Part shown: piece after piece, positions 35,368 through 39,482 of the stretch
How the letters are laid out: each line of letters opens with the position of its first letter
Position numbering within the stretch: the first letter of the stretch is position 1
DNA from: an uncultured Acidobacteriota bacterium
Lineage (GTDB): Bacteria; Acidobacteriota; Blastocatellia; Pyrinomonadales; Pyrinomonadaceae
Direction of reading: 5' to 3'
NCBI GenBank assembly: GCA_963726735.1
Contig: CAVSDM010000011.1
Location: 2,827-66,826 of the forward strand
Length of the DNA: 64,000 nt
Position numbers and translations under genes: made by a program
Notes under the pieces: generated by a model
What the model was told of the DNA's origin: nothing
The model's input: only the letters and a program-made list of their open reading frames with translations
Databases searched by the model: none

Positions 35368-35626
35368 TAGGCAGTAGGCAGCAAGCCGCGTCAGCGGCAG
35401 TTTGAATTGAGCCCGGCCTTTCAAGGCCGGGGCCGCCGTCAGTTATAGGTGCCGCGTCGCGTGAGCGACGGCTGAACGGTTCAGCCGTCGCTCACGCGAC
35501 GCGGCGCCGTAGTCGTCCAGTTTACCCGGCCTTGAAAGGCCGGGCTCAACTCAAGCGCCGCTCTGCGGCGTTCGACGCACGCGCTACGTTTATCTCTATC
35601 ACTGCCTACTGCCATCTGCCTACTGC
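35368..35626. repeat. Nested-palindrome element, copy B, embedded between GTAGGCAG-type word arms
   Basis: Word arms 35368-35382 and 35600-35626. Small hairpins at about 35410-35431 and 35525-35547. Central 27-bp stem 35451-35477 / 35479-35505. The interval 35385-35524 is the exact reverse complement of 39311-39450. Confidence 0.9.
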
Positions 35627-35937
35627 TTTTGCCGGTAGTGCTCGACGAGGGCAAAGAGTTGCTCCGTCTCTACGTCGGAGAGACCTTTGAACTCGACGCC
35701 GACGCCCCAGCGCTCGATGTGGTAGCGCACCTCGCCGTAGAGCGTCTTCTGCTCGGGCAGCCAGAACTTGATGAAGACGGGCTGGCCGCGCGCGGCGTCG
35801 CGCTCGGTGCGGAGGAAGTAGCCGCCCTCGCTGAGGCTGATGATGCGGTCGTGGAACGGGCAGTCGTCGGTCCAACCCCAGTAGACGTGTATGTCCACCA
35901 ACACCCGCTCGTGCCTGCGCTGTTCGGTGAAGGTCAT
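35620..35937 (-). CDS. PilZ-domain protein
   Basis: MTFTEQRRHERVLVDI (RxxxR-type motif) and ISLSEGGYFL (D/N-x-S-x-x-G-like). About 105 aa from ATG 35937. The upstream part of ORF 35620..36135 looks non-coding. Confidence 0.65.
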   Translation of the reverse strand: MTFTEQRRHERVLVDIHVYWGWTDDCPFHDRIISLSEGGYFLRTERDAARGQPVFIKFWLPEQKTLYGEVRYHIERWGVGVEFKGLSDVETEQLFALVEHYRQKQ

Positions 35938-36176
35938 GAGGTGGCTGTCGGTCTCTGTTCGGCGAAGTTTGTGGGATTGGTGCGAGAATAGCCGCAGTCG
36001 GTCGCCGGCCGCAAGCGGGGCGGCGAAAGATTCCCGGCGCGCTGCGGGGGGGCTTTGTGTTAAGCTTCCGGCCTCCGGCGGAGTTTCAAACGCGAGGCAC
36101 GTGAGACCCGCGCCGCAGACACACCGGCGGCGCACCCACGCAGTAACGATCTGATTTCTCGGGAGGTCGGCCGAAG

Positions 36177-36620
36177 ATGCGACGACGTGAGGGCGACGGC
36201 TGCCCCGTGTGGGGCGTACTGCAAGTCGTGGGCGACAAGTGGACGCTGCTCATCGTCCGCGACCTGGCGGGCGCCGCGCGCCGCACCACGGAACTCCTCG
36301 CGCGCCTCCACCCCATCAGCAGCCGCACGCTGATGGACCGCCTGCGCGACATGGAGCGCGACGCCCTCATCGAGCGGCGCGACCTCGGCGGCAGCCCCCC
36401 GCACGTCGAGTACGTGCTCACCGAACGCGGCCGCCTGCTCACGCCGCTGCTGGAGGCGCTGCGCGCCGCCGGCCAGGCGCTCGACTGCAACGACTGCGAC
36501 GACCGCCTCGGCCGCCACGAGTCCTACTGCGACTCGTGCCCGCGCGCCGCCGCCTCGGCCCCCGCGTCGTCGGCGCCGCCGCGACGCGCCCCCACCGACG
36601 ATTCCATCGTGCTGCTCTAA
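36177..36620 (+). CDS. HxlR-family winged-helix transcriptional regulator with Cys-rich C-terminal tail
   Basis: CPVWGVLQVVGDKWTLLIVRDL, ISSRTLMDRLRDMERDALIERR and VEYVLTERG. Tail: DCNDCDDRLGRHESYCDSCP. Confidence 0.8.
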   Translation: MRRREGDGCPVWGVLQVVGDKWTLLIVRDLAGAARRTTELLARLHPISSRTLMDRLRDMERDALIERRDLGGSPPHVEYVLTERGRLLTPLLEALRAAGQALDCNDCDDRLGRHESYCDSCPRAAASAPASSAPPRRAPTDDSIVLL

Positions 36621-36662
36621 ATCCCCGCTCTCTCCCCGGAACGAGGCGGCGCCGGGCGCCGC

Positions 36663-37265
36663 GTGGAGGTGAATATGAGGTCGGCCGACAGGACTTTCAA
36701 CATGACTTTCCGCAAGACGTTCGCGCTCGCCGGGGCCGCTCTGCTGCTGCTCGTCTCACAGTCGTCGGGGACGCGTGCGCAGGTCGCGCAGGAGCAGCAG
36801 CAGCGGCCGAAGCACTTCGTCATCTCCTCGCTCGGCACGGCCTTCGGGGTGCAGGTGGCGGTCGTGGGGACTTACACCGTCAGCGAGAAACACGTCGATG
36901 TGTACGTGGACCGTCTCCTCATCCGCGTGAGCGAGCACTGCCCGTACCAGGGGCGGCGGTTCGTCAGCACGTTGCTCTTCGGGCTGGGGACGACCGGCAA
37001 GCGCGGCGGTTGGGAGATGGAGAACAGAAGCCTGCCCGTCTTCGTCGAGCACGTGATGGCGCCGCGCGAGGAGCACCGGCTCGTCGGCCTCCGGTTCCAG
37101 ATTCCGCGGAACGAGGGGGCGGACTTGTCGAAGCGCTGGCTCGCCGTCGAGATCGAGGAGACATCCCTCGACGTGCCCGACGGTGACCCGGACAGGACGG
37201 GCTACGCCTTCGCGCACAGTTGCCGCACCCTCTTCGCGGCCCCCTGCGCGGAGCCCGAACGCTGA
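36663..37265 (+). CDS. Secreted protein of unknown function (~200 aa)
   Basis: Intact ORF with signal peptide FALAGAALLLLVSQSSGTRAQ. I recognise no motif. Confidence 0.5.
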   Translation: MEVNMRSADRTFNMTFRKTFALAGAALLLLVSQSSGTRAQVAQEQQQRPKHFVISSLGTAFGVQVAVVGTYTVSEKHVDVYVDRLLIRVSEHCPYQGRRFVSTLLFGLGTTGKRGGWEMENRSLPVFVEHVMAPREEHRLVGLRFQIPRNEGADLSKRWLAVEIEETSLDVPDGDPDRTGYAFAHSCRTLFAAPCAEPER

Positions 37266-37422
37266 CGCCGCCCGCGGCCGGGGCTTGAGAGACGAAGAGA
37301 CGAAAGTCGAACCTTCGCTTTCGCCTCTTCGTTTCCTCCTGTTGGCGGCCGAACCGACCGAGAGCCCGACCCGCGCGGCGACCGCTCATCCCGACACCCG
37401 CATCGTCGAAGAGAATTCAGAC

Positions 37423-39240
37423 ATGAGACTACAGCGCTTCTTCCTGCCCCTCTCCCTCGCAATCTCCCTGCTCGTCCCGTGCGCGCGGCCCGCGGCGGCG
37501 CAGGGCGTGGCGCCCGTGACGGCCGAGGCGCGCCGCGCGCGCATCGAGCGCGGACTGCTGCCGCCCGTCCTCATCAAGGGCGCGCCCGCGTGGTCGTTAG
37601 AGGAGCGCCTGCGCTACTACAAGGCGCCGGGCGTGAGCATCGCCGTCATCAGGGACTTTAAGGTGGAGTGGGCCAGAGGCTACGGCTTCAAAGACGCGGA
37701 GTCGCGCGAGCCCGTGACGGAGCGGACGCTCTTTCAGGCCGGCTCCATCAGCAAGCCCGTCGCCGCGATGACCATCCTGAAGAAGGTCGAACAGGGAAAG
37801 CTCTCGCTCGACGAAGACGTGAACGCCCGACTCGTCTCGTGGAAGCTGCCGGGGAACGAGTTGACGGCGAAGAAGAAGGTGACGCTGGCGAACCTCCTCA
37901 GCCACACGGCGGGCCTGACCGTCCACGGCTTCCCCGGCTACGCCGCGGGCGAGAAGCTCCCGACGGTCCCGCAGGTGCTCGACGGCGCGCCGCCCGCCAA
38001 CACCGCGCCCGTCCGCGTAGACCTCGAACCGGGCACGCGCTTCCGCTACTCCGGCGGCGGCACCACCATCGCCCAACTCCTGCTCACCGACACCGAGCGC
38101 CGGCCCTTCCCCGACATCGCGCGCGAGACGGTGCTCGCGCCCCTCGGCATGACGGACAGCGGCTACGAGCAGCCGCTCCCCGCGGCGCGCGCCCGCCTCG
38201 CCGCGACCGGCTACCGCGGCGACGGCAAACCCGTCGAGGGCAAGTTCCACGTCTACCCGGAGATGGCCGCGGCCGGACTCTGGACGACGCCGACCGACCT
38301 CGCGAAGTTCGGCATCGAGATGCAGCTCTCCCTACAGGGCAGGTCGAACAAGGTGCTCTCGAAGGCTACGGCCGAGCGGATGGCGACGCCCTACCTCCCT
38401 TCGTCGGACGTGGGCCTCGGCTTCTTCAACCAGAAGCGCGGGCAGCAGGTCTACTTCGGCCACAACGGGGCGGACGAGGGCTTCCGCGCCGACATGCTCC
38501 TGCACCGCGAGAAGGGCTACGGCGCGGTCGTGATGGTCAACTCGGACAACGGCCAGATCATCGGCGAAATCTTCCGCGCCATCGCGCGCGAGTACGGCTG
38601 GGACGAGTACCTGCCGGCGGAGGTCGAGACGGTGTCGGTCGCGCCCGAGCGGCTCGGCAGTTACGCCGGCCGCTACCTCATCAACCCCGACCGCGTGCTC
38701 AACATCACGCTTGAGGGCGGCCGCCTCTTCGCACAGCCGACGCAAGGGGCGAAGTCCGAACTCTTCCCCATCTCCGAGACGACCTTCACCCGGCAGGACG
38801 CGCCGCTCCGCATCACCTTCGAGCCCGCCAAAGCGACCTTCAGCGGCGGCAACAACACCTCGGACGCGCCGCGATTGACCGGCGGCACGCTCATTCCCTA
38901 CGAGCTGCTGCAAGCCGGCAAGGCGGACGAGGCCGTCGCCGCCTACCGCCGTATCAAGAAGGAGCAGCCCGACAACGTCTCGGTCTCCGAGCAGCGTTTG
39001 AACACGCTCGGCTACGAGCTGCTGCGCGCGCAGAAGCCGCGCGAGTCGGTCGCCGTCTTCGCCCTCAACGCCGAACTCTACCCGCAGTCCTTCAACGTCT
39101 ACGACAGCCTCGCCGACGCCTACGCCGAGAGCGGTGAGAAGGAGCTGGCCGTCAAGAACTACCGCCGCTCGCTGGAGCTGAACCCGCAGAACAAGAACGC
39201 GACCGAGATGTTGAAGAAGCTGGAAGGGGCGAAGCAGTAG
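37423..39240 (+). CDS. Serine hydrolase (class C beta-lactamase/PBP-like) with C-terminal TPR-like region
   Basis: Start MRLQRFFLPLSLAISLLVPCARPAAAQ. SxxK motif GSISKPV, then YSGGG and HNGADEGF. The C-terminal helical repeats end LELNPQNKNATEMLKKLEGAKQ. Confidence 0.8.
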   Translation: MRLQRFFLPLSLAISLLVPCARPAAAQGVAPVTAEARRARIERGLLPPVLIKGAPAWSLEERLRYYKAPGVSIAVIRDFKVEWARGYGFKDAESREPVTERTLFQAGSISKPVAAMTILKKVEQGKLSLDEDVNARLVSWKLPGNELTAKKKVTLANLLSHTAGLTVHGFPGYAAGEKLPTVPQVLDGAPPANTAPVRVDLEPGTRFRYSGGGTTIAQLLLTDTERRPFPDIARETVLAPLGMTDSGYEQPLPAARARLAATGYRGDGKPVEGKFHVYPEMAAAGLWTTPTDLAKFGIEMQLSLQGRSNKVLSKATAERMATPYLPSSDVGLGFFNQKRGQQVYFGHNGADEGFRADMLLHREKGYGAVVMVNSDNGQIIGEIFRAIAREYGWDEYLPAEVETVSVAPERLGSYAGRYLINPDRVLNITLEGGRLFAQPTQGAKSELFPISETTFTRQDAPLRITFEPAKATFSGGNNTSDAPRLTGGTLIPYELLQAGKADEAVAAYRRIKKEQPDNVSVSEQRLNTLGYELLRAQKPRESVAVFALNAELYPQSFNVYDSLADAYAESGEKELAVKNYRRSLELNPQNKNATEMLKKLEGAKQ

Positions 39241-39482
39241 GCGGTAGGCAGACGACAGTAGTTGAGATAAACGTAACGTATACGTCGAACGCCGCAGAGC
39301 GGCGCCTGAGTAAACTGGACGACTACGGCGCCGCGTCGCGTGAGCGACGGCTGAACCGTTCAGCCGTCGCTCACGCGACGCGGCACCTATAACTGACGGC
39401 GGCCCCGGCCTTGAAAGGCCGGGCTCAATTCAAACTGCCGCTGACGCGGCGTCTGCCATCTGCCTACTGCCATCTGCCTACT
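39234..39482. repeat. Nested-palindrome element, copy C (inverted relative to B; lacks one small hairpin)
   Basis: 39311-39450 is the exact reverse complement of 35385-35524. There is a ~25-nt deletion of one cccggcc hairpin relative to B near 39306-39311. Word arms at 39234-39261 and 39453-39482. Confidence 0.9.

What the first reader, a model, noticed from the sequence alone, without database searches (positions are those of the whole stretch)
35385..39450. Perfect 140-bp inverted repeat brackets a 3.8-kb four-gene cassette (PilZ, HxlR, unknown secreted protein, serine hydrolase)
35385-35524 is the exact reverse complement of 39311-39450 (140 of 140 by hand comparison). Weaker homology continues outward on both sides, including the word arms and a shared gataaacgta...cgtcgaac stretch. 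Copy C lacks one 25-nt small hairpin present in B. The two copies face each other across 35525-39310, which holds PilZ (minus), the HxlR regulator, a 200-aa secreted unknown and a beta-lactamase-fold hydrolase (plus). Long perfect inverted repeats at this spacing are substrates for recombinational inversion. They can also mark a composite mobilised segment. The perfect identity contrasts with the ~80% similarity of copy A, which implies recent duplication or gene conversion.
Basis: partly seen in the sequence, partly recalled or inferred. Interest (0 to 1): 0.62.

Follow-up and report, generated by a model that had tools for sequence, protein, structure and literature searches.

The report
Two identical palindromic mobile-element copies
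The perfect 141-bp inverted repeat is real, but it is two copies of a roughly 200-bp hairpin-rich miniature mobile element (linked to an IS200-type transposase in soil Acidobacteria) that sit in the hairpins at either end of an old, conserved gene neighbourhood, so the four genes between them are not a mobile cassette.

Summary
In detail: 35385-35525 and 39310-39450 are 141/141 reverse complements.

- **What the arms are.** They are two copies of a ~200-bp nested-palindrome repeat family, present in tens of copies per genome in Pyrinomonadaceae (Acidobacteriota). A third copy lies at 21774-21975.
- **Transposase link.** In related genomes a 150-aa IS200/IS605-type Y1 (HUH) transposase gene sits in the element's central loop, flanked by the two ~95-nt three-hairpin halves. 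The window copies are therefore transposase-less miniature derivatives (REPIN/MITE-like, TIRYT-type). Their outer two hairpins match Rfam's orphan 'Acido-Lenti-1' motif.
- **Setting.** Both copies lie inside older intergenic hairpins whose arms are tandem heptamer 'words', directly after the stop codons of PilZ and of the hydrolase.
- **Not a cassette.** The order GGDEF-PilZ-HxlR-(unknown)-hydrolase-methyltransferase is kept, in the same orientation, in ten related species that lack one or both copies. No inverted arrangement was seen.
- **Perfect identity.** It is confined to the core: 0/141 differences against 8/50 in the adjoining tail, and other family pairs are at most 85% alike. This points to recent gene conversion between the two copies.
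- **Inversion.** It remains possible in principle but is untested, because no reads of this strain are available.

The parts
35350..35381 (.). Left heptamer 'word arm' of the intergenic hairpin that holds copy B: (GAGTAGA/GAGTAGG/CAGTAGG)n, with outer GGCAAAGG foot.
   Evidence: Inverted repeat with 35602-35633, 32 nt, 81% (I7). Motif CTRCCTACTG: 32 matches in the window against 2.45 expected.
35385..35525 (.). Copy B core, the 141-nt tract identical to rc(39310-39450). It contains hp1 35385-35398 (GCCGC-GTCA-GCGGC), linker TTTGAATTGAG, hp2 35412-35431 (CCCGGCCTTTCAAGGCCGGG), a copy-specific spacer, the central 30+30-bp hairpin 35448-35508 and a second spacer.
   Evidence: Folded as ssDNA with its word arms: -118.9 kcal/mol, z=-17.4.
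35525..35570 (.). Copy B outer module of the right half: hp2' (35525-35544), CTCAACTCAA linker, hp1' (35555-35570). hp2' is the small hairpin missing from copy C.
   Evidence: Rfam RF01687 Acido-Lenti-1: 33.7 bits (gathering 37), E=4.9e-6. Alignment with C.
35571..35601 (.). Copy B 'tail' TTCGACGCACGCGCTACGTTTATCTCTATCA. This optional outer extension of the family is present on one or both sides of other copies.
   Evidence: Similar tails in L007, L009, L010, L041, L054, L061 (both sides), L063 and L082. 8/50 differences from the tail of C.
35602..35633 (.). Right word arm of the hairpin holding B (CTGCCTA CTGCCAT CTGCCTA CTGC + TTTTGCC). It overlaps the PilZ stop codon (35620-35622, minus strand).
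39235..39261 (.). Left word arm of the hairpin holding copy C (CAGTAGG CGGTAGG CAGACGA CAGTAG). It contains the hydrolase stop codon TAG at 39238-39240.
   Evidence: A nearly identical arm lies at the orthologous site of L081, which has no element.
39262..39309 (.). Copy C tail plus hp1' (reverse orientation), 84% identical to B's tail. hp2' is deleted at the 39309/39310 junction.
   Evidence: (I2).
39310..39450 (.). Copy C core: exact reverse complement of 35385-35525.
   Evidence: I1.
39453..39482 (.). Right word arm of the hairpin holding C (CTGCCAT CTGCCTA CTGCCAT CTGCCTA), 6 nt upstream of the methyltransferase ATG (39489).
21774..21975 (.). Copy A: a complete, canonical family member (both outer modules, central 28-bp perfect hairpin) without word arms. 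It lies between convergent genes: response regulator 21238-21735(+) and MBL-fold gene 22007-23032(-).
   Evidence: (I1, I6). Acido-Lenti-1 hits at both ends, 34.7 and 33.9 bits.
34229..35233 (-). REC-GGDEF diguanylate cyclase, the left flank gene. A promoter-like site at 35354-35325 lies between hairpin B and this gene.
   Evidence: Pfam GGDEF 3.9e-44, Response_reg 9.8e-30. Promoter scan.
35620..35937 (-). PilZ-domain protein. Its stop codon lies in the word arm next to B.
   Evidence: Pfam PilZ 1.1e-9.
36177..36620 (+). HxlR-type transcription regulator.
   Evidence: Pfam HxlR 6.6e-21.
36675..37265 (+). 196-aa protein of unknown family with a signal-peptide-like N-terminus. Present in only some relatives.
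   Evidence: No Pfam hit. tblastn hit in L080, L081, L082 and L085 but not in L063, L083, L084, L086, L087 or L090.
37423..39240 (+). Beta-lactamase-fold serine hydrolase with a DUF3471-like region and C-terminal TPR.
   Evidence: Pfam Beta-lactamase 5.5e-56, TPR, DUF3471.
39489..40259 (+). SAM-dependent methyltransferase, the right flank gene.
   Evidence: Pfam Methyltransf_11 1.7e-16.

Best explanation
The two arms are independent copies (B and C) of a ~200-bp nested-palindrome, non-autonomous element family of Pyrinomonadaceae.

**Element plan.** hp1 - TGAATTTAG - hp2 - spacer - long central hairpin - spacer - hp2' - CTAAATTCA - hp1', with an optional ~30-nt tail. In relatives the full unit carries a 150-aa IS200/IS605-type Y1 (HUH) transposase gene in the central loop, flanked by the two ~95-nt halves as terminal inverted repeats. 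The window copies are therefore transposase-less derivatives, REPIN/MITE-like.

**Where they sit.** B and C lie in the loops of pre-existing intergenic hairpins built from tandem heptamer 'words'. These hairpins follow the stop codons of two divergent transcription units: PilZ leftward, and HxlR-unknown-hydrolase rightward. The units belong to an ancestral, syntenically conserved neighbourhood.

**Why they are identical.** The perfect identity of the 141-nt core most likely arose by recent gene conversion between B and C. The tract is bounded by the element end on one side and by the hp2' deletion on the other.

**Shown:** the family, its anatomy, the transposase association in relatives, compensatory conservation of the hairpins, conserved synteny with empty sites, and the mosaic identity.

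**Inferred:** single-strand 'peel and paste' mobility driven by the Y1 enzyme; gene conversion as the homogenising event; a terminator or mRNA-end role for the host hairpins.
For: - BLAST found 89 places in the loci held. Soil-metagenome word depth over the outer modules is ~700-3000 against ~30 on unique flanks.
- **Anatomy.**
- **Transposase.** A 150-aa ORF lies between the two halves in L006, L076 and L031, and between two whole elements in L001. Pfam Y1_Tnp 2.4e-31. NCBIfam IS200 equivalog, 88.6 bits against a cutoff of 55. PDB relatives are IS200/IS608/ISDra2-type transposases.
- **Copy number of the gene.** 211 relatives were confirmed in genome contigs. The best 80 are mostly Blastocatellia, with 1-3 per genome and the same three-hairpin flanks.
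- **Hairpin conservation.** On 46 flanks, 96.8% of cells pair and 13/20 pairs show compensatory changes. 0/500 shuffles reach this, and slid controls give at most 39%.
- **Rfam.** RF01687 hits both flanks of tnpA above gathering in L163, L120 and L111, and one flank in L118.
- **Synteny.** Ten related loci keep the gene order and orientation. The closest relative (L080, 87-96% aa identity across the genes) has no element at either site. An X5 metagenome contig replaces 39241-39486 with 16 nt.
- **Ancestral hairpins.** The word arms are nearly identical to the window's at site C of L081, which has no element. Site B there carries arms of the same CAGTAGG word type.
- **Mosaic identity.** Core 0/141, tail 8/50, p=1.4e-5. 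Other within-genome pairs average 0.74 and reach 0.85 at most.
Against: - No transposase gene lies in the 64-kb window, and the rest of the source genome could not be examined. The link to tnpA therefore rests on relatives.
- Exact element termini, target sequence and presence or absence of target duplications were not resolved.
- Short-read MAGs collapse or break at near-identical repeats. The '85% at most' figure for other pairs may therefore understate recent copies.
- Gene conversion is inferred only from the mosaic pattern.
- Copy C sits in the opposite orientation to the element at the same site in L063/L082. This means either independent insertion or a local flip, and it was not resolved.
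- In-window copies score just below the Rfam gathering threshold.
- Transposition has never been demonstrated for this family.
Confidence: 0.8

Rival explanations
1. Invertible segment. The perfect inverted repeats serve as crossover sites (RecA-dependent or recombinase-dependent) that flip PilZ-HxlR-unknown-hydrolase. This would change which genes lie next to the GGDEF promoter region and the methyltransferase.
For: 141 bp of perfect inverted homology 3.8 kb apart is a competent substrate for homologous recombination (established knowledge). Identity maintained against a diverged family background shows that the two copies do interact. In relatives X1/X2 the contig covering the interior stops near both core edges (35534 and 39309). 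That fits a repeat at both sites, though short multicopy words would break it there as well.
Against: All ten related loci and the metagenome contigs that cross a junction show the window's orientation. No recombinase or invertase was found among 18 predicted genes Pfam-scanned between 19 and 48 kb. Inversion would separate each unit from its own terminator hairpin arm without an obvious regulatory gain. No reads of this strain were available to show a second orientation.
Confidence: 0.06
2. Composite mobile cassette. The two repeats mobilise the four genes between them as a unit.
For: The genes are bracketed by inverted copies of a mobile-element-derived repeat.
Against: The repeats encode nothing. 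Y1 transposases act on single elements with defined left and right ends, not on outside ends of pairs (established knowledge of IS200/IS605). The same genes sit in the same place, between the same neighbours, in ten species without the repeats. One relative has B but not C.
Confidence: 0.02
3. The identity is an assembly or polishing artefact: one copy was used to correct or patch the other.
For: Repeat-rich palindromes are hard to assemble and polish. The source reads could not be inspected. The B/C-specific spacer sequence is found in no other public contig.
Against: The identical tract ends exactly at a structural difference (the hp2' deletion) and at the element terminus, as expected for a biological conversion tract. 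A related strain in four soil metagenomes also has repeats at both sites, and its contig covering the interior stops near both core edges (35534 and 39309).
Confidence: 0.07
4. Copy C (or B) is a fresh transposition product of the other, not a conversion product.
For: The copy-specific spacers are identical. The two sites are only 3.8 kb apart, so local hopping is plausible. Both landed in the same kind of hairpin loop.
Against: A new insertion should carry both element ends. Here hp2' is missing from C, and hp1' plus tail differ by 16% while the rest is identical.
Confidence: 0.15
5. The elements act mainly as RNA. They would be an Acido-Lenti-1-type small RNA, or a 3'-end stabiliser or terminator, with orientation fixed relative to transcription.
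For: B read on the minus strand equals C read on the plus strand, so both have the tail next to the upstream stop codon. Rfam lists the outer module as a probable RNA. REP elements are known to stabilise or terminate upstream mRNAs (literature cited in PMC3733652). RNA-labelled runs contain the outer module and word arms.
Against: The element is near-palindromic, so both strands fold alike. At the same site in L063 and L082 the element has the opposite orientation. The motif flanks a transposase gene as inverted DNA repeats. The RNA runs are contigs of uncertain purity and do not cover the core. This rival is not exclusive of the main explanation.
Confidence: 0.15

Closest known systems
REPIN-RAYT systems (REP doublets forming hairpins plus REP-associated tyrosine transposase; Bertels & Rainey 2011, PMC3116915; Ton-Hoang/Quentin, PMC6006769)
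   Same: Extragenic, hairpin-forming inverted doublets in tens of copies per genome. A low-copy Y1/HUH transposase gene is flanked by the same repeats in inverted orientation. The family is diverged and apparently inherited vertically within one bacterial family.
   Different: The transposase is not of the RAYT (TnpA_REP, class 2) clade. Its Y motif is Y---Q--HH (YIQHQREHH), the signature of Quentin et al.'s subclass 1.2, and NCBIfam calls it an IS200 equivalog. Each half is a ~95-nt three-hairpin module, not a 20-40-nt GTAG-tagged REP. The gene sits inside the doublet's central loop.
TIRYT/TIRtron (TIR-associated tyrosine transposases; Di Nocera et al. 2013, PMC3733652)
   Same: A Y1 transposase gene flanked by long, partly self-complementary terminal inverted repeats that also occur as a dispersed repeat family. 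That paper singles out a sharply defined Acidobacteria group, including Koribacter versatilis.
   Different: That work covered Acidobacteriia isolates, not Blastocatellia/Pyrinomonadaceae. I could not compare sequences with its supplementary alignment. The fused TIR-TIR 200-nt derivative and its nesting in heptamer hairpins are not described there.
IS200/IS605 insertion sequences and their miniature derivatives (PATEs/MITEs)
   Same: HUH-Y1 transposase of ~150 aa. Subterminal hairpins next to the gene, with an invariant inner hairpin hp3 followed by TTGAA. Transposase-less short derivatives.
   Different: Canonical IS200/IS605 have different left and right ends and no TIRs, and occur as several full copies. 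Here the ends are ~95-nt inverted repeats, and tnpA is at 1-3 copies against tens of miniature copies. There is no tnpB.
Rfam RF01687 Acido-Lenti-1 RNA motif (Weinberg et al. 2010, PMC2864571)
   Same: The two-hairpin 46-nt motif is the outer module (hp2'-CTAAATTCA-hp1') of the element. It is above the gathering score on the flanks of tnpA in relatives, and its seed species include Koribacter versatilis.
   Different: Rfam and the paper treat it as a probable trans-acting RNA of unknown function, noted only as 'sometimes near group II introns'. Here it appears as an inverted DNA repeat around a transposase gene. In-window copies score 22-34.7 bits, below the threshold of 37.
Tandem heptanucleotide repeats of cyanobacteria and Beggiatoaceae (STRR, from my own knowledge; TAACTGA repeats, PMC4679880)
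   Same: Intergenic tandem arrays with a 7-nt period, several word types per genome, many containing CAGT.
   Different: Those are described as direct arrays, mostly upstream of start codons. Here the arrays come as inverted pairs that form long hairpins just after stop codons, and they host palindromic inserts. This concerns the word arms, not the 141-nt repeat.

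Membership tests
REPIN-RAYT system | Repeat is an inverted doublet of palindromic units able to form one long hairpin | tested here: met
   Anatomy. Central 30+30-bp stem (I3/I4). ssDNA fold -118.9 kcal/mol, z=-17.4.
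REPIN-RAYT system | Tens to hundreds of extragenic copies per genome | tested here: met
   At least 79 stretches, about 12-30 per MAG (scan truncated). Depth ratio ~25-100x in soil metagenomes. Three copies in this 64-kb window. The source genome as a whole could not be counted.
REPIN-RAYT system | Low-copy Y1 transposase gene flanked by the same repeat in inverted orientation | tested here: met
   Relatives L006, L076, L031 and L001. One tnpA each in the three MAGs that hold 12-30 repeats. Not testable for the source genome: none in the window.
REPIN-RAYT system | Transposase belongs to the RAYT/TnpA_REP clade (class 2 motifs such as YI..NP; GTAG-tagged REP) | tested here: not met
   Y motif YIQHQREHH = Y---Q--HH, the subclass 1.2 signature in PMC6006769. 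NCBIfam IS200 equivalog. PDB hits are only IS200/IS608/ISDra2-type transposases. No conserved GTAG foot on the element.
TIRYT/TIRtron | Y1 transposase gene flanked by long terminal inverted repeats that are not GTAG REPs | tested here: met
   ~95-nt inverted halves on both sides of tnpA in most of the 80 loci.
TIRYT/TIRtron | The TIRs are members of a dispersed repeat family in the same genome | tested here: met
IS200/IS605 insertion sequence | HUH-Y1 transposase | tested here: met
   Pfam Y1_Tnp 2.4e-31. NCBIfam 88.6 bits. Invariant DHVH and WQDGYGAFTVS...Y in 4 sequences.
IS200/IS605 insertion sequence | Dissimilar left and right ends, no terminal inverted repeats | tested here: not met
   The ends are inverted repeats of ~95 nt.
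IS200/IS605 insertion sequence | Several full-length (transposase-bearing) copies per genome | tested here: not met
   1-3 tnpA per genome among the 80 best loci.
Rfam RF01687 Acido-Lenti-1 | Covariance-model score at or above the gathering score (37 bits) | tested here: not met
   Window copies: 33.7 and 22 bits (B); 34.7 and 33.9 bits (A); none at E<=0.01 in C. Homologous modules flanking tnpA in relatives reach 37.2-44.2 bits.
Rfam RF01687 Acido-Lenti-1 | Functions as a transcribed RNA | tested here: inconclusive
   RNA-labelled runs hold contigs with the module, but DNA carry-over cannot be excluded and there is no strand information.
Composite transposon | Flanking elements are transposase-encoding IS copies | tested here: not met
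   B and C are ~190-220 nt and non-coding. No tnpA in the window.
Composite transposon | Bracketed genes are present or absent as a unit, or sit in different contexts in relatives | tested here: not met
   Same genes, neighbours and orientation in ten species lacking the repeats.
Invertible DNA switch | Both orientations exist in a population | not testable with these tools
   No reads of this strain. Short-read contigs cannot span a 141-nt perfect repeat. Relatives show only one orientation.
Invertible DNA switch | Dedicated site-specific recombinase encoded nearby | tested here: not met
   Pfam on 18 predicted genes between 19 and 48 kb found none.

The most novel reading that the evidence does not exclude
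Three linked proposals.
- The heptamer-word hairpins are not just terminators. They would be an undescribed, fast-turning-over class of intergenic palindromes: arms of tandem 7-mers whose word changes between species at orthologous sites.
- They would serve as preferred single-strand landing pads for palindromic mini-elements, including this one.
- The element's end structure, catalogued in Rfam as the orphan 'Acido-Lenti-1 RNA', would in fact be the DNA recognition end of a domesticated subclass-1.2 Y1 transposase, a REPIN-like system outside the RAYT clade. B and C would be kept identical by conversion between two such pads.
Probability: 0.2. Interest if true: 0.6.

Novelty: new member of a known kind. 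Interest (0 to 1): 0.35.

Why it matters
For the finding as posed, the result is deflationary. The striking perfect inverted repeat does not mark a mobile or switchable cassette. It is two copies of a dispersed miniature element in a conserved neighbourhood, so the PilZ/HxlR/hydrolase genes should be annotated as ordinary chromosomal genes.

Three by-products may interest mobile-DNA and RNA-motif specialists.
1. A concrete REPIN-like repeat population tied to a Y1 transposase of Quentin et al.'s subclass 1.2. That subclass was described as low-copy, without IS properties and without known associated repeats.
2. A probable identity for the orphan Rfam motif Acido-Lenti-1: the outer part of that transposase's terminal inverted repeat.
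3. A genome-wide set of heptamer-built hairpins in Pyrinomonadaceae that repeatedly host such inserts.

The B/C pair is also a clean natural example of a conversion tract between nearby inverted mini-elements.

Tried and rejected
- **Source strain.** I looked for its reads or contigs. The best run holds 22% of the words and no nanopore run is listed. Three window proteins are not on record in the contig index. The B/C-specific spacer is absent from genome contigs and metagenome contigs. Orientation of the segment therefore could not be tested directly.
- **Last metagenome scan.** I used it on the conserved methyltransferase start. The single hit (L175) has a different upstream gene and was uninformative.
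- **Metagenome contigs on B.** Only the multicopy outer modules are well covered. Depth over the B-specific centre (0-65) does not settle whether relatives also have two identical copies. The 'opposite strands' joint 35370|39474 is explained by B and C being mutual reverse complements. It is not an inversion junction.
- **RNA-labelled runs.** Too sparse and unstranded to be informative.
- **Rfam miRNA/Mcr7/Ms1 'hits'.** Far below gathering; they reflect any long hairpin and were rejected.
- **Composite transposon and dedicated-invertase readings.** Rejected on synteny and on the absence of recombinase or transposase genes.
- **Target-site motif.** I looked for a conserved motif next to hp1 by eye in 49 copies. 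No consensus emerged.
- **CAGTAGN words and the REP 'GTAG' tag.** I considered a relation, but other word families (CCGTGAA, GGGTGTT, GGGATGA) lack GTAG, so I did not pursue it.

Full report
**1. Observation.**
The repeat finder reports arms 35385-35525 and 39310-39450: 141 nt, 100% complementary, 3784 nt between them. Complementarity continues at 83% for 80 nt on the inner side (35549-35628 vs 39232-39311). It continues at ~74% through the outer 'word arms' (35355-35381 vs 39453-39479). Reading both copies and aligning B with the reverse complement of C confirms that C lacks a ~25-nt small hairpin present in B at 35525-35550. A third copy, 77.7% identical, lies at 21774-21975. Pfam confirms the genes: REC-GGDEF (34229-35233, -), PilZ (35620-35937, -), HxlR (36177-36620, +), a 196-aa protein without family (36675-37265, +), beta-lactamase-fold hydrolase with TPR (37423-39240, +) and a SAM methyltransferase (39489-40259, +).

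**2. Anatomy of one copy.**
Each copy is itself a nested palindrome. The parts, in order, are:
- hp1, GCCGC-GTCA-GCGGC;
- a conserved linker, TGAATTTAG;
- hp2, CCCGGCCTTTCAAGGCCGGG;
- a ~20-nt copy-specific spacer;
- a long central hairpin, GCCGCGTCGCGTCAGCGACGCCTGAAC / loop / reverse complement;
- a second spacer;
- hp2', CTAAATTCA and hp1'.

Some copies carry a ~30-nt 'tail' (GATAAATGAAGGCGTGTGCGTnAA or its complement) on one or both sides. B and C each have one. With its word arms, B folds as single-stranded DNA at -118.9 kcal/mol (z=-17.4).

**3. A dispersed family.**
All are in Pyrinomonadaceae or otherwise-unclassified Acidobacteriota MAGs, with roughly 12-30 per MAG and many at contig ends. 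BLAST with B found 89 places in the loci held. In four soil metagenomes that contain a ~94%-identical relative of this region, word depth over the outer modules is ~700-3000 against ~30 on the unique flanks. Among assembled full-length copies, within-genome pairwise identity averages 0.74 and never exceeds 0.85 (226 pairs in three MAGs). Short-read assemblies tend to lose near-identical repeats, so that maximum may be an underestimate.

**4. Link to a Y1 transposase.**
In some loci the two halves are ~500 nt apart. The interval is a 150-aa ORF (L006 1874-2323; also L076 and L031). In L001 the ORF lies between two complete elements.
- It is an IS200/IS605-type HUH tyrosine transposase: Pfam Y1_Tnp 2.4e-31, NCBIfam IS200 equivalog 88.6 bits, and solved-structure relatives that are IS200/IS608/ISDra2-type transposases.
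- Its stop codon abuts the right central arm, so the ~200-nt element equals this unit minus the gene.
- A genome-collection scan confirmed 211 relatives. The best 80 are mostly Blastocatellia/Pyrinomonadaceae, 1-3 per genome. Most are flanked by the same plan, hp1-TGAATTTAG-hp2-spacer-hp3-TTGAA.
- On 46 downstream flanks, 96.8% of cells form standard pairs and 13 of 20 pairs show compensatory changes. 0/500 shuffles reach the observed values, and slid controls give at most 39%. hp1 and hp2 covary, while hp3, next to the gene, is invariant.
- The protein's Y motif, YIQHQREHH, fits the Y---Q--HH signature of subclass 1.2 of Quentin et al. (PMC6006769). They describe this subclass as low-copy, lacking IS properties, and mostly cyanobacterial or Bacteroidetes.
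- Di Nocera et al. (PMC3733652) coined TIRYT/TIRtron for Y1 transposases flanked by long inverted repeats. They noted a sharply defined Acidobacteria group. The system here fits that description.
- No such gene is in the window.

**5. An orphan Rfam motif.**
The outer module (hp2'-linker-hp1') matches Rfam RF01687, Acido-Lenti-1. The scores are 33.7 and 22 bits in B and 34.7 and 33.9 bits at the two ends of copy A. There is nothing at E<=0.01 in C. In relatives it reaches 37.2-44.2 bits against a gathering score of 37, on both flanks of tnpA in L163, L120 and L111 and on one flank in L118. Weinberg et al. 2010 listed it as a probable RNA of unknown function from Acidobacteria and Lentisphaerae, with Koribacter versatilis among the seeds. 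Its position as an inverted repeat around a transposase gene suggests a DNA-level role. That is an inference.

**6. Setting: heptamer-word hairpins and conserved synteny.**
B and C each lie between inverted arrays of tandem heptamers (CAGTAGG-type words). The arrays begin at the stop codons of PilZ and of the hydrolase. Ten related loci (L080-L087, L063, L090) keep the order and orientation GGDEF(-) PilZ(-) HxlR(+) [unknown(+)] hydrolase(+) methyltransferase(+) DUF2585(+).
- The closest relative (L080, 87-96% aa identity across the genes) has no element at either site.
- L081 has word-arm hairpins with short loops at both sites. Its site-C arms are almost identical to the window's. Its site-B arms use the same CAGTAGG word type.
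- L063 has an element at site C in the opposite orientation.
- A metagenome contig (X5) joins 39240 to 39487 through 16 nt.

The hairpins are therefore ancestral. The elements are lineage-specific additions inside their loops, and the four genes are not a cassette. The two copies 'face each other' because they sit at the ends of two divergent transcription units. About a quarter of full-length family copies lie between such word arms.

**7. Why perfect identity.**
Differences between B and rc(C) are 0/141 in the core, including both copy-specific spacers. They are 8/50 in the adjoining hp1'-tail segment (Fisher p=1.4e-5), plus the hp2' deletion. A fresh transposition should copy both ends. A tract bounded by the element terminus on one side and by an indel on the other is what gene conversion between two older, diverged copies would leave. 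I rate conversion as the most likely cause (about 0.6). Recent local transposition comes next (about 0.15), and then an assembly or polishing artefact (about 0.07).

**8. Inversion.**
A 141-bp perfect inverted repeat is a competent substrate for homologous recombination, so rare inversions of 35526-39309 cannot be excluded. Nothing supports a regulated switch. No recombinase was found among 18 predicted genes Pfam-scanned between 19 and 48 kb. Only one orientation is seen in all relatives. No data from this strain are available.

**9. How it most likely works.**
- **Shown:** a hairpin-rich, near-palindromic non-coding element family; a cognate Y1/HUH transposase in relatives; structural conservation of the end hairpins.
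- **Inferred from established IS200/IS605 and RAYT biology:** the enzyme recognises the hairpins on single-stranded DNA and cuts and rejoins at defined feet. Miniature copies are moved in trans. Long intergenic hairpins expose single-stranded loops that favour insertion.
- **Inferred from position:** the host hairpins act as terminators or 3'-end stabilisers. A promoter-like site for GGDEF lies just beyond hairpin B.

**10. Novelty and verdict.**
The finding is a new member of a known kind: REPIN/TIRYT-type miniature elements. The cassette and composite reading is refuted, the switch reading is unsupported, and the 'recent conversion' reading is supported. Side results are the subclass-1.2 association, the Acido-Lenti-1 identity and the heptamer hairpins. 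They lift the interest modestly.

Noticed in passing
window 15232-15325, 31415-31500, 34141-34244, 35350-35633, 39235-39482, 43303-43423, 53721-53790, 55477-55690, 56714-56834, 57324-57390; many related loci: Genome-wide intergenic hairpins whose two arms are tandem heptamer arrays. Words include CAGTAGN, CCGTGAA, GGGTGTT, GGGATGA, GTGATGA, GGTGAAT and CAGTTTT. In 817 kb of Pyrinomonadaceae DNA there are 190 period-7 arrays (7-17 in shuffles) and 52 inverted-array sites (0 in shuffles), with a sharp peak at period 7. They often start on the stop codon. At orthologous sites different species use different words. I know of no description of these. The nearest parallels are the direct heptamer arrays of cyanobacteria and Beggiatoa.
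   Followed up: partly
L163 1396-1441 and 1995-2040; L120, L111, L118; window 35525-35570, 21775-21821, 21928-21977: The Rfam orphan motif Acido-Lenti-1 (RF01687) corresponds to the outer two hairpins of the terminal inverted repeats flanking a subclass-1.2 Y1 transposase gene. This suggests it is a DNA end-structure of a mobile element rather than a free-standing sRNA.
   Followed up: partly
window 55521-55662: A second, unrelated palindromic repeat family (AGCCCCGGAGGGGCG... / ...CGCCCCTCCGGGGCT) sits inside another CAGTAGG word-arm hairpin. Copies occur in L013 and L032, and a similar-looking palindrome lies at site C of L083. Word-arm loops therefore host several insert families.
   Followed up: partly
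L063 4292-4513, L082 7325-7365 vs window 39262-39450; L080 7831-7854: At orthologous site C the element in L063 and L082 has its tail next to the methyltransferase, the opposite of the window. The 'empty' sites of L080 and of metagenome X5 retain GGCGCTCTGCG, which looks like a remnant of hp1' in the L063 orientation. This suggests an earlier occupant was deleted, and that the window's copy was flipped or re-inserted.
   Followed up: partly
window 36675-37265: The 196-aa signal-peptide-bearing protein of unknown family is present in only some relatives (L080, L081, L082, L085). It is absent between HxlR and the hydrolase in others. It is a variable insert within the otherwise conserved neighbourhood.
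   Followed up: no
L028 3960-4040 and 4226-4330: One family copy is flanked on the left by a tandem array of hp1-like units (TTTCGCCGCCTCAGCGGCGTGTAAG x4) and on the right by repeats of GCGTCAACGCGGAACC-like units. Single hairpin modules can evidently amplify in tandem.
   Followed up: no
window 34229-35937 and 43424-43801: Cyclic-di-GMP theme. A REC-GGDEF cyclase lies next to a PilZ protein, and a second small PilZ-domain gene follows another word-arm hairpin at 43303-43423.
   Followed up: no
window 31444-31468: The loop of the word-arm hairpin at 31415-31500 contains AACGTCGCTGACGCGGC. This resembles a solitary hp1'/hp3-type unit of the element family and may be a remnant.
   Followed up: no
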